A stretch of 64,000 bases of DNA from Halarcobacter sp. (GTDB taxonomy: Bacteria; Campylobacterota; Campylobacteria; Campylobacterales; Arcobacteraceae). Location: NCBI GenBank assembly GCA_048571215.1, contig CP182352.1, positions 768,001 to 832,000 of the forward strand, in the 5' to 3' direction. Position 1 is the first letter of the stretch. Each line of letters starts with the position of its first letter. A program made the position numbers and the translations under genes. Shown here piece after piece: positions 1 to 5,025 of the stretch. The notes beneath the pieces were generated by a model, which was given only the letters and a program-made list of their open reading frames with translations, was not told the origin of the DNA and searched no databases.

Positions 1-106
1 GAATTAAACTTTAAAAAAGAATGAATCATCACAATACTACCAGTGATAAAGTTGTCACTAGTAACTGTCACAAGAGAAAGTGGATTCAAATTATTTTTGT
101 TTTATT

Positions 107-280
107 TTAAGAATAATCTGCTATTCCATCAGATTGGCGGCTATTATTTGCATATGTTACAGTTTTTGTTATATCTGAAATTGTACCAAGTGATTTGAAC
201 TCAGGTGAATGATATTCTTTTAATAGACTTTTATCATTTTGTTCTTTTTTTGCTTCTGTTATATTTTTATTATCTTTCAT
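107..280 (-). CDS. Lasso peptide precursor, 57 aa (MKDNKNITEAKKEQNDKSLLKEYHSPEFKSLGTISDITKTVTYANNSRQSDGIADYS); not in ORF track
   Basis: Translated by hand. ATG overlaps the PqqD TGA (ATGA), AAGGA upstream. Leader YHSPEFKSLGTISDIT fits YxxPxLxxxGxxxxxT; adjacent RRE and cyclase genes. Confidence 0.85.
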   Translation of the reverse strand: MKDNKNITEAKKEQNDKSLLKEYHSPEFKSLGTISDITKTVTYANNSRQSDGIADYS

Positions 281-552
281 TTTATATCCTTTTTAAGTAA
301 TAAGTTTTTATCATTTAATCTATTTATTAGATTATTAATATCTTCATCTAGTCTTTTTTCTGAAGTATCATAAACCATTAAGAGTTCTTGGATCACTTCT
401 TCTTGATTTAATCCTTTTTGAAAGAGTTCAATAATCTCAGAACCAACTTTATCTAAAGAAAAATACTCTTCTGTTTGAAGATCTAACAAAATTGTGTCTT
501 CGTTTAGTTTTTGTATTATTACATCTTCTTTAAAGCTAAGAATTTCTGACAT
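277..552 (-). CDS. PqqD-family RiPP recognition element (lasso B1)
   Basis: 91 aa; LLDLQTEEYFSLDKVGSEI and L..Y......L..D pattern typical of stand-alone RREs. Confidence 0.9.
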   Translation of the reverse strand: MSEILSFKEDVIIQKLNEDTILLDLQTEEYFSLDKVGSEIIELFQKGLNQEEVIQELLMVYDTSEKRLDEDINNLINRLNDKNLLLKKDIK

Positions 553-648
553 AAAATCCCCTTTTTCTAATAATACTTTTATTTATTTTAAAATTATATT
601 AAATGATATTATATTATAATATATTATTCTAAATATTATGGAAAAAAT

Positions 649-2493
649 ATGAATTCAATTTTTGGAATCTTTACTACTAACTCCAATCTTATAAGAGAAA
701 ATACAAATGGTAAATTTCATAATAATTTTAAATATTCCATTGAGACATATTTAGATGAAAATATCCTATTAAAAAAAACTTTTCGTAATAAAAAATATAC
801 TCAAAAATTAATAGAAAAAAATAATATTATCTTAATAGGCAAAATAAGGGTTTATAATAAAAATGAATTAATTAATCAATTTAATTTAAAAAATCAAGAC
901 TCTTCATCTAATGAATTATTTCTAATAACCCTATATTTAAAACTTGGAAAAGATTTTATAAAGTATCTTAAAGGGCATTGGAGTGTTGCTTTATGGGATA
1001 AAAGTAAAAGAGAATTGTTTTTATCAAGAGATGATTCAATACAAACAAATCTTTATTATTATTGGGATAAAAACTTATTTATTTTTTCAAGTAATCTAAG
1101 AGCTATTTTAGATATTAAGTATATAAATAAAGAATTAAATAAACAGGCGATATATTCTTATAGTGGAATTCCAAATGATAATCAAACTTTATATAAAAAT
1201 ATTTTTGAATTAACTTCATCATCTTTTATTCAAATTGGTTTAAATCAAACTATGAAAATCTCAAATTATGAGTCTTTTAATAAAATAAAAAAAATTGAAT
1301 ATGACACAACTGAACAATATATAAATAAATTTATTAAAGTTTATAACTTTGCAATTGAAAATTGTATTAAAAATTATGATAATATAGCTTCCACCTTAAG
1401 TTCTGGTTTGGATTCAGGTTCAATCACAACATTGGCTTCAAAAATACTTGAAGAGAAACAAAAAAAACTTTACAGTTATAGTTTTGTATCAACTTATGAA
1501 ACAGAAAGTATAAGTAAAAATAGATTTTCTGATGAAACTCAAGGGATAAAAAAAATACTAGCTACTTTAAATAATGTTGAATCAAAAATTTTAAAAAATA
1601 CTAATCTTTCATATGTTGATGCTTTTAATTTAAATTTAGATCTATTAGGACAACCTTTAGGAACTGCTAATATAGATAATTGTCTTAATATGGTATCAGA
1701 ATCAAAAAATGATAACATGGATATTTTGTTGATAGGGCAAAATGGAAATTTCACTATATCTTATCAAGGAGATTATGGATATTATTTAAATAGTTTGTTA
1801 AAAGGTTTTAAGTTTTCTGAGTATTTCAATAATCTTTTTAAAGAAGATAAATATTTAAAGAATTTATATTTACAAATTTCTAATTTAAATTTTATACATC
1901 ATTTAATACATAAAAAACATAAGAAAAAAATTGATAAAACAAGCTTTATAAATAAAAATTATCTTAATTTGAATAAAGTAAGTTCCAATAACCCTGAAAA
2001 AGAGTTTTTAGTTAGGTTAACCATTTTTAAACACCATAAACACTTAATAAAAAATAAATATAAATGGAATGAGTGGGGAGAACTTTTAGGAATTGAAATA
2101 CAAGACCCTACAACCAATATAGACTTAGTAAATTTTTGTTATGGCATACCTGAAAATCAATATATAGACAAATACAATGAAAAACTTTTGATTAAAAATG
2201 CAATGAAAGATTTAATGCCAAAAGAGATTTTATGGGCAAAAAAAAGGGGACAACAATCAGCTGATTTAATTGAAAAATTTAAACAACAAGAGGAACAAAT
2301 AGGGGATAATTTATCTATGATATTTAACTCAACTTTATGTAAAGAGTATCTTGATATTAATGGTTTAGAAAATACTTTTTTAAATTTAAATACTTCTTTA
2401 GATAGGAAAAAACTTTTTGAAAACTGCTATCAATTATTACGTGCATTACATTATGGAATGTTTTTATTAAGACTTGAAAGGAATTGTGTTTGA
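649..2493 (+). CDS. Asparagine synthetase-like lasso cyclase (C protein)
   Basis: LSSGLDS ATP-binding motif, LIGQNGN; N-terminus MNSIFG lacks the catalytic Cys of AsnB. Confidence 0.8.
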   Translation: MNSIFGIFTTNSNLIRENTNGKFHNNFKYSIETYLDENILLKKTFRNKKYTQKLIEKNNIILIGKIRVYNKNELINQFNLKNQDSSSNELFLITLYLKLGKDFIKYLKGHWSVALWDKSKRELFLSRDDSIQTNLYYYWDKNLFIFSSNLRAILDIKYINKELNKQAIYSYSGIPNDNQTLYKNIFELTSSSFIQIGLNQTMKISNYESFNKIKKIEYDTTEQYINKFIKVYNFAIENCIKNYDNIASTLSSGLDSGSITTLASKILEEKQKKLYSYSFVSTYETESISKNRFSDETQGIKKILATLNNVESKILKNTNLSYVDAFNLNLDLLGQPLGTANIDNCLNMVSESKNDNMDILLIGQNGNFTISYQGDYGYYLNSLLKGFKFSEYFNNLFKEDKYLKNLYLQISNLNFIHHLIHKKHKKKIDKTSFINKNYLNLNKVSSNNPEKEFLVRLTIFKHHKHLIKNKYKWNEWGELLGIEIQDPTTNIDLVNFCYGIPENQYIDKYNEKLLIKNAMKDLMPKEILWAKKRGQQSADLIEKFKQQEEQIGDNLSMIFNSTLCKEYLDINGLENTFLNLNTSLDRKKLFENCYQLLRALHYGMFLLRLERNCV

Positions 2494-3380
2494 ATTATTA
2501 TTATGCTTATAATTTTGTTTTTAAATCAGAACTAGAAATACCAGAGTTAGAAGTTTGTGAAAATAAAGATTATGATGTAGAGATTAGGTTTGACTCAATT
2601 AATTATGATTTTGATAAATTTAAGAAAAATAGAATATGGAAAACAAAAGATAATTATTTTGTATTAAAAGTTAAAAATATAGGTATATTTTTAGTAAAAG
2701 ATGCAAATACAATTATTATAGATTGTTTTGAAAATACAAAAGAAGAAGATTTACGCTTTGTGTTATTGGGTTCTGTTTTTGCTGCTTTATTACAGCAAAA
2801 AAAACTTTTAACTTTGCATGCTGGGTGTGTTAAAGTAGATAACAATAATTGTATTTTATTTATAGGACCATCAGGTTATGGTAAATCAACTTTGACAACT
2901 GCATTTTCTAATTTAGACTATGAAATTCTTTCTGATGATGTTGTAGCTTTAGATATAAAAGAGAAACAAATCAGTATTCCACCTTCATTTCCTAAGCTAA
3001 GACTATGGAAAGATTCTGCAAAACAATTAAAGTTAAACTATGAAAGTTTTTCTACGTCAAGAGTTGGTTTAAAAAAGTATATGATTCCAATTCCTAGATT
3101 TTGTAAAACAAAACTAAATTTAAAAAAAATATATCTTTTAAATGTATATAATAAAGATGAAATTATCTTAGAAGAGTTAAACGGTGCACAAAAAATAAAA
3201 GCTTTGATTGACAATACTTATCGTATTAAATTTTTATCTGGAATGAAACTTATAAAGAATCATAATACTCAGATTTTAAAAGTATGTTCACAAATTGATA
3301 TTGTAAAAATTACTAGACCTTTAAATGTTTTTTTAATTGATGAATTGATTGAAAAGATACAAAAAGATTTATTAAAATGA
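2484..3380 (+). CDS. HPr kinase-like RiPP kinase
   Basis: LHAGCV, P-loop GPSGYGKST, LSDD; overlaps cyclase; start uncertain. Confidence 0.8.
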   Translation: MCLNYYYAYNFVFKSELEIPELEVCENKDYDVEIRFDSINYDFDKFKKNRIWKTKDNYFVLKVKNIGIFLVKDANTIIIDCFENTKEEDLRFVLLGSVFAALLQQKKLLTLHAGCVKVDNNNCILFIGPSGYGKSTLTTAFSNLDYEILSDDVVALDIKEKQISIPPSFPKLRLWKDSAKQLKLNYESFSTSRVGLKKYMIPIPRFCKTKLNLKKIYLLNVYNKDEIILEELNGAQKIKALIDNTYRIKFLSGMKLIKNHNTQILKVCSQIDIVKITRPLNVFLIDELIEKIQKDLLK

Positions 3381-4204
3381 AAAAGATTTATTGGTTGGCC
3401 TCTTACCCTAAGTCTGGAAATACTTGGTTAAGAGCACTATTAACATCTTATTTTAGCAATGCTGACTTTAATATAAATCAATTGTTGGGAAATAATTTTA
3501 TATCAAGAAATGAATTTGATGATTGGCTTGGTTTAGAATCATCTGATTTAAAAGAGAGTGAAATTACTATGTATCGGCATTATTACTATTTGGATATTGC
3601 TGCAAATCTAGATAAAATAATATTTATAAAAGTTCATGATTTAAACAGATTAACAATAGAAAATAAAGAGTTATTTCCAAACACAATAACAAAAGGAACT
3701 ATCTATCTAGTTAGAAACCCTTTAGATATTGCAGTATCTTATGCACATCACGAAAATTGTAGTTTAGATGAGATTATAAAAAAGATGAATGATACTAATG
3801 CTTTTCTATTGCCCTATACTGAAAAGTTAAAATTATCATTGCCCCAAAAATTATCATCTTGGAATGAACATGTAAAAAATTGGAAAGAAAAAGATAATAT
3901 TAAAATTGTTAGATATGAAGATATGGTTTTAGATACAAAAAATGTTTTTATGGGGATTCTTACATTTATGGGGTTTGAAATTGATGAAAAGAAGATAGAT
4001 AAGGCAGTAGATTTATCAAGTTTTGAGCATCTTAAAAAACAAGAACAAAATTATGGTTTTGTAGAACGATCTGCAGAAGCTAGTTCTTTTTTTAGATCAG
4101 GAAAAATTGGTGAAGGAAGAAAAATCTTAACTAAACAACAAATAAAAAAGATTATTGATAAAAACTATGAAATGGTAGAATATTTTGGGTATTTAAAAGG
4201 TTAA
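3377..4204 (+). CDS. PAPS-dependent sulfotransferase
   Basis: 5'-PSB ASYPKSGNTW, 3'-PB RNPLDIAVS, C-terminal FFRSGKIG. Confidence 0.92.
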   Translation: MKKIYWLASYPKSGNTWLRALLTSYFSNADFNINQLLGNNFISRNEFDDWLGLESSDLKESEITMYRHYYYLDIAANLDKIIFIKVHDLNRLTIENKELFPNTITKGTIYLVRNPLDIAVSYAHHENCSLDEIIKKMNDTNAFLLPYTEKLKLSLPQKLSSWNEHVKNWKEKDNIKIVRYEDMVLDTKNVFMGILTFMGFEIDEKKIDKAVDLSSFEHLKKQEQNYGFVERSAEASSFFRSGKIGEGRKILTKQQIKKIIDKNYEMVEYFGYLKG

Positions 4205-4206
4205 TA

Positions 4207-5025
4207 TTGGATAATAAAATTGATAAAATAGAATTTGTTAAGCAGCTTAAAAAAAGTGAATCAAAATTTTTTGTTTCTAGTAGGTTTTTAGATGAAGATA
4301 TGGATTTAGATATTTATTTGAAGTTTTTTTATCCATATTTAAGGTTAGAGCAAATAGAGTCAATATATGGGTTTGCATTACAATTAAGTAGTTTATATGG
4401 GGGACGTTCATATAAAAAAGGAACTTTAGCAACAAAGAAACATTTAAATCAATTAAAAAAGTTGAATATAAATTTTTCATTAACTTTAACTAATCATTAC
4501 TTTAGTGATGAAGCTTTTGAAGAAAGTTTTGAGTTGTTAGAGTATTTACATAAACATGGAAATTCAATTACTGTTACAAATAATAAACTTGTAAAAAAGA
4601 TTAAAGAGTTTTTTCCTTTATTTACTTATAAAGCAAGTTTGATTAAACATCTTGATAGTTTAGAAAAAGTTAATAATGCTTTGAAAATATATGATTATAT
4701 AGTGGTTCCAATGGATAAAAATGATGATGATATTTTTTTAAATTCATTGCCATATAAAGAGAGAATAATTCTTTTTATAAATGCAAATTGTGCTTATAAT
4801 TGTCCTTCAAGAATTTGCTATACTTCAATTAGTAAAAGTTTATCAAATAGACAAGATAGTTCAAATTTTGATTGTTCTATTTATAATATTCCACGCAAAA
4901 ATTTGGGACATATATTTTTCAATCTTAAAAAGTTTGAGAATATGGGATTCTCAAACTTTAAATTAGTTCCTCAATATAGTGAAAAGCTTATTGGTATGGT
5001 AAGAAATTTTTCAAAAAAGAATTAA
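4207..5025 (+). CDS. Hypothetical protein, U32-like barrel with Cys motif (possible Fe-S enzyme)
   Basis: YGGR, LTLTN, YDYIVV, NANCAYNCPSRIC, GFSNFKL; 2 nt after sulfotransferase stop. Confidence 0.5.
   Translation: MDNKIDKIEFVKQLKKSESKFFVSSRFLDEDMDLDIYLKFFYPYLRLEQIESIYGFALQLSSLYGGRSYKKGTLATKKHLNQLKKLNINFSLTLTNHYFSDEAFEESFELLEYLHKHGNSITVTNNKLVKKIKEFFPLFTYKASLIKHLDSLEKVNNALKIYDYIVVPMDKNDDDIFLNSLPYKERIILFINANCAYNCPSRICYTSISKSLSNRQDSSNFDCSIYNIPRKNLGHIFFNLKKFENMGFSNFKLVPQYSEKLIGMVRNFSKKN

What the first reader, a model, noticed from the sequence alone, without database searches (positions are those of the whole stretch)
107..4204. Kinase plus sulfotransferase and a C-terminal Asp-Tyr-Ser: candidate phospho/sulfo double modification
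Seen: precursor ends GIADYS; operon encodes both an HPr-like kinase and a PAPS sulfotransferase. Established: the paeninodin kinase phosphorylates the C-terminal Ser of a core ending HYDS, and Tyr next to acidic residues is a typical sulfation context. Inference: Ser57 is phosphorylated and Tyr56 (or another hydroxyl) is sulfated.
Basis: partly seen in the sequence, partly recalled or inferred. Interest (0 to 1): 0.75.

Follow-up and report, generated by a model that had tools for sequence, protein, structure and literature searches.

The report
Kinase-sulfotransferase lasso peptide satellite cluster
A bacterial gene cluster for a small knotted peptide carries a serine kinase and a sulfate-adding enzyme that travel together across many bacteria; phosphate on the last serine is likely, but the sulfate target is unsolved and is more probably that phosphorylated end than the neighbouring tyrosine.

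Summary
In detail: the precursor ends GIADYS, and an intact HPr-type kinase overlaps an intact PAPS sulfotransferase (ST1). PAPS supply is present. Corrections: the precursor lies on the opposite strand, probably co-transcribed with a glycosyltransferase and two more sulfotransferases outside the window. The locus lacks B2 and an exporter; the genome's only intact B2 lies in a second lasso cluster 1.37 Mb away. Ser57 phosphorylation is likely (about 0.85). Tyr56 sulfation is not the module's conserved job: among 32 loci with kinase-coupled ST1 and a called precursor, 29 end in Ser, 4 in Tyr-Ser, and 18 have no Tyr in the last 14 residues. ST1 resembles Teg12 and cytosolic SULTs, not the tyrosylprotein sulfotransferases that prefer Asp-Tyr. 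Against my reading, all 3 precursors known from ST1's own subclade carry Tyr within the last four residues. Best reading (0.42): ST1 acts on the phosphorylated Ser terminus, capping the phosphate or a sugar on it. Tyr56 sulfation: 0.28. The gene pairing was noted in 2014 and 2021, and this scan met it earlier on other DNA. My paper searches found no sulfated lasso peptide.

The parts
1..89 (-). 5' end of a GT8 glycosyltransferase that starts 17 nt after the precursor's stop and runs off the window (G000:C1:767214-768089); followed by overlapping ST3 (766408-767217) and ST2 (765645-766424) sulfotransferases
   Evidence: PF01501 E 1e-20; PF13469; PF03567
107..280 (-). Lasso-type precursor, 57 aa; leader motif YHSPEFKSLG; most likely core Ala44-Ser57 with Asp51 at ring position 8
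110..112 (-). Ser57 codon, predicted phosphorylation site
   Evidence: Ser-terminal in 29 of 32 related loci
113..115 (-). Tyr56 codon: proposed sulfation site; equally the only bulky tail residue able to act as a lasso plug (inference)
   Evidence: Tyr at -1 in 4 of 32 loci
277..552 (-). B1 / RRE (PqqD-like) leader-binding protein, overlapping the precursor start by 4 nt
   Evidence: PF05402 above cut-off; best hits are lasso PqqD models, below cut-off
649..2493 (+). Lasso macrolactam synthetase C (asparagine-synthetase-like, SSGLDS motif, no N-terminal Cys)
   Evidence: (NF033535 best hit, E 1e-54, below its cut-off)
2484..3380 (+). HPr-kinase-like lasso peptide kinase (H112, P-loop, D151-D152)
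3377..4204 (+). ST1, PAPS-dependent sulfotransferase of the kinase-coupled clade; overlaps the kinase stop by 4 nt
4207..5025 (+). 272-aa protein with a U32-like predicted fold; its 52%-identical paralogue in cluster B is fused to a sulfotransferase
   Evidence: (no Pfam hit)

Best explanation
This is a satellite lasso-peptide cluster. (1) The kinase phosphorylates the side chain of Ser57 on the linear precursor, possibly more than once (inferred from characterised homologues, about 0.85). (2) B1 binds the leader, and the genome's only intact B2 (cluster B, 1.37 Mb away) cleaves before Ala44 (inferred). (3) C closes an Ala44-Asp51 ring of eight residues, leaving a six-residue tail in which Tyr56 can serve as plug (inferred). 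(4) ST1 uses PAPS to sulfate the modified Ser terminus rather than a side chain elsewhere. Most simply it transfers SO3 to the phosphate, giving a Ser-O-phosphosulfate cap (about 0.27), a parallel to the hexose cap that PsmN places on the same phosphate in pseudomycoidin. Alternatively it sulfates a sugar first added there by cluster B's nucleotidyltransferase or by GT8 (about 0.15). (5) Cluster B's ABC transporter exports the product (inferred). Shown here: gene content, intact catalytic motifs, PAPS supply, kinase-ST1 coupling and conservation of the terminal Ser. No reaction is shown.
For: ST1 starts within 26 nt of the kinase stop in 39 of 42 measured pairs, 26 of them overlapping. All 43 kinase-coupled ST1 sequences fall in one clade of 57 that excludes 53 of the 55 ST1 homologues with no lasso gene in view (SH-aLRT 100). 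The terminal Ser is the only near-invariant core residue: 29 of 32 loci, with 13 different residues at -1 among the first 37 precursors. 18 of 32 loci have no Tyr in the last 14 residues, including ST1's close relatives L010 (43.6% identical) and L026 (41%); L026 has an APS kinase beside its Tyr-free precursor. R44 is kept in 46 of 49 kinase-clade enzymes against 5 of 53 others, and D48 and D88 likewise, so the clade has its own conserved residues. Capping of the Ser phosphate has precedent in PsmN. B2, nucleotidyltransferase and ABC transporter are intact in cluster B; B2 and the nucleotidyltransferase occur elsewhere only as remnants in cluster C.
Against: I found no precedent for a SULT-fold enzyme sulfating a phosphate (listings only). 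ST1's nearest solved relatives act mostly on phenols. In ST1's own nine-member subclade (SH-aLRT 94.7) all 3 known precursors have Tyr in the last four residues. Tyr in the last five residues (9 of 32) is above a crude background (p about 0.015). 3 of 32 loci keep kinase and ST1 though their precursors do not end in Ser (L028, L053, L072). A nucleotidyltransferase was seen in only 15 of the first 30 loci (many contigs are short), which weakens the sugar branch. B1 of this cluster is only 26% identical to cluster B's B1, so B2 working in trans is unproven. The leader is four residues longer than the usual spacing. R44 may be merely structural; I could not read pocket geometry from the model.
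Confidence: 0.42

Rival explanations
1. One reading: Ser57 is phosphorylated and Tyr56 is O-sulfated, by ST1 or by the co-transcribed ST3. The wider family would then have mixed acceptors, with this subclade specialised on a tail Tyr.
For: The best solved relatives are Teg12, Teg14, StaL and phenol SULTs. 3 of 3 precursors in ST1's subclade have Tyr at -1, -2 or -3. All 4 ST1 loci with an Asp/Asn hydroxylase have Tyr in the last five residues, against 5 of 28 others (p 0.004, but post hoc and not independent). Within the genome, clusters A and B (with ST1) end in Tyr-Ser and decayed cluster C (no ST1) ends in Leu-Ser. 0 of 8 kinase loci without ST1 have Tyr in the last five residues. An Atlas cluster auto-named protein-tyrosine sulfotransferase matches ST3 at TM 0.70.
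Against: Tyr-Ser in 4 of 32 loci; no Tyr in the last 14 residues in 18 of 32. The difference from the controls is not significant (p 0.16). The Tyr label does not cluster on the ST1 tree (7 changes against 8.0 shuffled, 26% of shuffles as low). The Tyr position varies within the subclade. No TPST among ST1's matches; Asp-Tyr is a TPST preference. A plug role explains tail aromatics.
Confidence: 0.28
2. ST1 or its neighbours sulfate another hydroxyl of the peptide: Ser47 or Ser50, or a beta-hydroxy-Asn/Asp first made by the cluster's Asp/Asn hydroxylase or by the U32-like ORF272 (hydroxylate, then sulfate).
For: The hydroxylase gene is in the cluster. ORF272 follows ST1 directly, and its paralogue is fused to a sulfotransferase in cluster B and in a 63-member Atlas cluster; another Atlas cluster carries PqqD in 35% of members. 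Hydroxylase-sulfotransferase fusions exist. Cores average three Ser/Thr besides the terminal one.
Against: The hydroxylase was found in only 4 of 32 ST1 loci and ORF272 only in this genome's two clusters. No internal hydroxyl position is conserved, and this model does not explain why ST1 is tied to the kinase.
Confidence: 0.15
3. No doubly modified lasso peptide is made here: cluster A is an orphaned or decaying satellite that B2 cannot process, or ST1 acts on a non-peptide acceptor such as a surface glycan or a tail-collar protein.
For: No B2 or exporter in the cluster; cluster C in the same genome has already decayed. The leader-to-core spacing is atypical. The ST1 family also holds many standalone members with no lasso genes, including 78 of 79 loci from viral contigs. 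Related clusters often sit among glycosyltransferase genes.
Against: All nine tailoring ORFs and the precursor are full length. ST1 belongs to the lasso-linked clade. Lasso genes are also scattered over several places in Tistrella mobilis plasmids. One RNA contig from another study covers the precursor and B1 genes (146-479, 3 differences; weak, DNA carry-over not excluded).
Confidence: 0.15

Closest known systems
Paeninodin-type phosphorylated lasso peptides (PadeK, ThcoK, proteobacterial SyanK; as summarised in PMC8498205)
   Same: A, B1, C and an HPr-type kinase; C-terminal Ser; kinase catalytic motifs intact
   Different: No B2 or exporter in the locus; ST1 coupled to the kinase plus two more sulfotransferases, GT8, a hydroxylase, a U32-like protein, a GNAT and three tail-collar genes; divergent two-operon layout
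Pseudomycoidin (PsmK, PsmN; PMC6993621)
   Same: Ser-terminal phosphorylation followed by a second enzyme that caps the phosphate; the kinase DD pair matches D151-D152; a PsmN-type NTP_transf_5 gene is in cluster B of this genome
   Different: The cap is hexose, not sulfate; no sulfotransferase is named for the psm cluster in the passages read
Teg12, Teg14, StaL (glycopeptide aryl sulfotransferases; PDB 3MGB, 3NIB, 4EEC)
   Same: Best solved match by profile (E 7e-28) and by fold (TM 0.68); PAPS motifs and catalytic His kept; act on a finished peptide scaffold
   Different: About 21% identity; non-ribosomal substrate; no kinase partner
RaxX / RaxST (Tyr-sulfated RiPP of Xanthomonas; PMC9372746)
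   Same: Bacterial ribosomal peptide with an Asp-Tyr context and a dedicated sulfotransferase
   Different: RaxST is TPST-like, whereas ST1 matched no TPST structure; RaxX is not a lasso peptide (recalled); Tyr is not conserved in the ST1 family

Membership tests
Lasso peptide (class II) | Precursor with a YxxP-type leader and Thr at -2 | tested here: met
   Y23-x-x-P26; Thr38, Thr40 and Thr42 are all candidates for -2
Lasso peptide (class II) | Asp or Glu at core position 7-9 | tested here: inconclusive
   Met only if cleavage follows Thr42-Tyr43 (Asp51 = position 8, as in several relatives); canonical spacing from Thr38 would put it at 12
Lasso peptide (class II) | B1/RRE and macrolactam synthetase C | tested here: met
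   PF05402 above cut-off; C's best NCBIfam hit is the lasso cyclase model, below cut-off
Lasso peptide (class II) | B2 leader peptidase | tested here: inconclusive
   Absent from the locus; one intact copy at C1:2138547-2139005 above the NF033537 cut-off, and a broken remnant in cluster C
Lasso peptide (class II) | Threaded topology of the product | not testable with these tools
   Needs NMR or heat/carboxypeptidase tests
Paeninodin-type lasso kinase | HPr-kinase fold with catalytic His, P-loop and Asp-Asp | tested here: met
Paeninodin-type lasso kinase | Cognate precursor ends in Ser | tested here: met
   Ser57; 29 of 32 related loci
Paeninodin-type lasso kinase | Phosphorylates the terminal Ser | not testable with these tools
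   Inferred from PMC8498205 and PMC6993621
PAPS-dependent sulfotransferase (PF00685) | 5'-PSB loop, 3'-PB motif, catalytic His, and PAPS supply | tested here: met
Tyrosylprotein sulfotransferase (TPST / RaxST type) | Closest similarity to TPST rather than to cytosolic SULTs | tested here: not met
   No TPST among 49 phmmer hits, 32 profile hits, or the fold matches shown down to rank 50
Tyrosylprotein sulfotransferase (TPST / RaxST type) | Conserved acceptor Tyr in the cognate peptides | tested here: not met
   Tyr at -1 in 4 of 32 loci; none in the last 14 residues in 18 of 32; met only in the three-member subclade sample

The most novel reading that the evidence does not exclude
The kinase-ST1 pair, widespread in lasso clusters of many bacteria, builds a Ser-O-phosphosulfate (a PAPS-like mixed anhydride) at the peptide's C-terminus. 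That would be a peptide modification for which I found no report, and a SULT-fold enzyme using a phosphate as acceptor. The cap could lock the lasso tail, shield the phosphate from phosphatases, or activate the terminus for further chemistry.
Probability: 0.27. Interest if true: 0.85.

Novelty: new variant of a known kind. Interest (0 to 1): 0.5.

Why it matters
Sulfation has not been shown for a lasso peptide in the papers I could search, although sulfotransferase genes in kinase-containing lasso clusters were flagged in 2014 and 2021. The comparison here turns a vague prediction into a sharp test. The kinase-coupled sulfotransferases form their own clade, and the only thing their substrates share is the terminal Ser, so the order of action (kinase first) and the S57A / Y56F pair decide the chemistry. 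This genome is a convenient test case: three related clusters, one complete, one satellite and one decayed without ST1. Either outcome gives a new peptide-sulfating enzyme; the phosphosulfate outcome would be new chemistry.

Tried and rejected
Looking for close relatives in kin: the kinase was not found with this single-protein query in 150 genomes of the family or in 400 sampled from the phylum, so no vertical series of this cluster could be studied. A single-protein scan of genome contigs gave 1 locus. The kinase alignment was too diverse for a pattern scan. The precursor has no useful database homologue (itself and one chance repeat protein). The loci of ST1's closest orthologues (P0011, P0012; 52-54% identical) could not be fetched, so their precursors are unknown; shared longest-contig lengths, and accession numbers eight apart in one case, suggest they sit with kinase and ST3 orthologues. 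Viral contigs hold ST1 and ST3 homologues but almost no lasso genes. The promoter scan found no more sites than shuffles (79 against 82.8). Complex prediction for kinase plus ST1 was not available, so binding is untested. The first FastTree tree, without the database orthologues, did not place ST1 with L018 and L041, and support values printed after midpoint rooting were partly shifted; only the values are used. P0010 (96% identical) is not an independent homologue: its contig length equals that of an error-bearing contig from a run that may be the source sample. RNA coverage elsewhere in the locus was patchy contigs only and was not used. Rejected: ST1 as a TPST/RaxST-type enzyme; C as an ordinary asparagine synthetase (no N-terminal Cys, lasso model best); high-resolution mass alone as the deciding test, since phospho-Ser plus sulfo-Tyr and phosphosulfo-Ser are isobaric. 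The original paeninodin paper (PMC4919450) is not held, so its statements come second-hand; no supplementary files were read, and tables of lasso clusters there could hold further notes on these sulfotransferases.
Full report
Observation. The window begins inside a lasso-peptide cluster. A 57-residue ORF at 107-280 (-) ends ...QSDGIADYS and overlaps a B1/RRE gene at 277-552 (-). On the other strand lie a lasso cyclase (649-2493), an HPr-type kinase (2484-3380), a sulfotransferase, here ST1 (3377-4204), and a 272-residue ORF (4207-5025). The kinase keeps H112, the P-loop and D151-D152; the equivalent Asp pair is essential in PsmK (passages). ST1 keeps both PAPS-binding motifs and K85/H87 and folds with pLDDT 94.

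The cluster is larger than the window. Reading left in the genome, the precursor is followed on its own strand, with short gaps or overlaps, by a GT8 glycosyltransferase and two more sulfotransferases (ST3, PF13469; ST2, PF03567). Facing them are an Asp/Asn beta-hydroxylase, a GNAT and three tail-collar genes. There is no B2 peptidase and no exporter. The genome has two more lasso clusters. Cluster B (C1:2138300-2149616) is complete: B1, B2, ABC transporter, DUF218, nucleotidyltransferase, a fusion of the ORF272 paralogue with a sulfotransferase, kinase, ST1, a precursor ending Pro-Tyr-Ser and a cyclase. Cluster C (604522-610107) is a decayed relative of B with remnants of B2 and the nucleotidyltransferase, no ST1, and a precursor ending Leu-Leu-Ser. 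B's B2 is the only intact one. The kinase was not found with this query in 150 family or 400 phylum genomes, so the system is patchy in this lineage.

Core and ring. Three threonines could be the -2 residue. Only Thr42 puts an acid in ring range: core Ala44-Ser57, Asp51 at position 8, which matches the Asp-Gly at position 8 in several relatives. This needs a leader four residues longer than usual, so the cleavage site is an inference. With that ring, Tyr56 is the only bulky residue in the six-residue tail and could be the plug.

The comparative test. Adding viral, plasmid and genome loci, 43 ST1 genes have a kinase directly upstream; in 39 of 42 measured pairs the gap is at most 26 nt. In a tree of 110 sequences, all 43, five others beside lasso genes, six database orthologues and three without lasso genes in view form one clade of 57 (SH-aLRT 100), apart from 53 standalone or contig-edge homologues. 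Precursors were called with a leader pattern and then a profile; two low-scoring ones were accepted by eye, one duplicate locus was dropped, and 18 of the first 48 clade loci gave none, many being short. Of 32 loci with a precursor (30, two), 29 end in Ser, 4 end in Tyr-Ser, 9 have Tyr in the last five residues and 18 have none in the last 14. Genome G528, an assembly of unstated completeness, has three kinases, two ST1 genes and three precursors, none with a core Tyr. L026 has an APS kinase beside a Tyr-free precursor. Undetected extra precursors beyond a fetched stretch cannot be excluded. Tyr is therefore not what this enzyme clade requires; the terminal Ser, the kinase's site, is what the substrates share.

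Enzyme class. ST1's solved relatives are Teg12, Teg14, StaL and cytosolic SULTs; no TPST appears. The Asp-before-Tyr preference is described for TPST (passages), so that argument does not carry over to ST1. The same fold also serves alcohols, amines and glucosinolate precursors, so it does not fix the acceptor. R44, D48 and D88 mark the kinase-coupled clade; whether R44 binds a phosphate I could not test.

Results against my reading. ST1's own subclade of nine (SH-aLRT 94.7) contains three loci with known precursors, and all have Tyr at -1, -2 or -3; the other six are database proteins whose loci I could not fetch. All four ST1 loci with the hydroxylase have a tail Tyr, a post hoc pattern among related loci. 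Tail Tyr is above a crude background (p about 0.015) though not significantly above eight kinase loci without ST1 (0 of 8, p 0.16). Those controls are imperfect: two share a replicon with an ST1 elsewhere, and two have another sulfotransferase-like gene nearby. The Tyr label does not cluster on the tree overall, and the next clade out (15 members, SH-aLRT 92.3) already includes Tyr-free L010 and L026. Three loci keep both enzymes without a terminal Ser.

Mechanism. I commit to: kinase first, on Ser57 of the linear precursor (about 0.85); B2 and export borrowed from cluster B; and ST1 acting on the phosphorylated terminus (0.42 overall: directly on the phosphate about 0.27, on a sugar attached to it about 0.15). 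Tyr56 sulfation by ST1 or ST3 is the main rival (0.28). Sulfation of another or newly made hydroxyl (0.15) and a non-productive or non-peptide role (0.15) follow. None of these reactions is shown.

What is known. A 2014 survey noted HPr kinase and sulfotransferase genes in lasso clusters with unclear roles (PMC4289311, passages). A 2021 review repeats the putative sulfotransferase and describes the kinases (PMC8498205, passages). The 2026 review's list of lasso modifications names no sulfation (PMC13352647, term search). PMC13381572 (passages) shows a related kinase polyphosphorylating a Ser in a non-lasso family. Searches for lasso peptide + sulfotransferase (18 papers), lasso peptide + sulfat since 2019 (237, 25 listed), lasso + HPr kinase + sulfotransferase (2), lasso + PAPS + RiPP (4), 'sulfated lasso' (0) and tail collar + lasso (0) showed no characterised case; apart from the papers named I saw listings only, and subscription journals are largely missing. 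This scan has noted kinase-sulfotransferase lasso clusters on other genomes, one favouring a tail Tyr and two reporting kinase-ST fusions; these are unchecked notes, and my counts were made independently.

Verdict. A real and intact satellite member of a known but chemically unsolved family. The phosphorylation claim is ordinary and likely. The sulfation claim would be new if shown, but the proposed site is the less likely one. Interest 0.5; new variant of a known kind.

Noticed in passing
window 4207-5025 (+); G000:C1:2144198-2145817 (-): The 272-aa ORF has no Pfam hit but a U32-like predicted fold. Its 52%-identical paralogue is fused to a sulfotransferase, and Atlas clusters show it joined to a sulfotransferase or to PqqD: a candidate new peptide-modifying enzyme.
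   Followed up: partly
L001:8038-9648; also L017, L064, L082, L086, L180, L181: Triplets of phage tail-collar genes, often with a GNAT or DUF6916, recur beside lasso clusters in distant bacteria, with or without ST1; a paper search for the pairing found nothing.
   Followed up: partly
G000:C1:604522-610107 (L011): A third lasso cluster is a decayed relative of cluster B: broken B2, a nucleotidyltransferase remnant, no ST1, one intact precursor and a second leader-like ORF at L011:4257-4454 that lacks the usual tail.
   Followed up: partly
L053:3042-3523: Three tandem precursors do not end in Ser but share Tyr-x(2-3)-Thr-Ser followed by exactly four residues; removal of a follower peptide would expose a terminal Ser.
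   Followed up: no
L013:12995-13222: The predicted core of the Thalassobaculum precursor has no Asp or Glu, so it cannot form the usual macrolactam although a cyclase, B2, two kinases and ST1 surround it.
   Followed up: no
L014, L015, L182, L184, L185 (Tistrella mobilis plasmids): Kinase, kinase-ST1, cyclase, B1 and precursor modules are scattered over at least five places on three plasmids, a second case of split lasso machinery.
   Followed up: partly
G000:C1:2142874-2144091: A transposase gene sits inside cluster B between the nucleotidyltransferase and the ORF272-sulfotransferase fusion; a split copy lies at 71113-72329.
   Followed up: no
G000:C1:1147050-1147280: A third APS kinase match covers only the C-terminal half and holds a stop codon, within a polysaccharide locus.
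   Followed up: no
L055, L062, L063 and L097-L174: The sister ST1 homologues without a kinase occur in tandem arrays of up to four and, singly, on many viral contigs.
   Followed up: no
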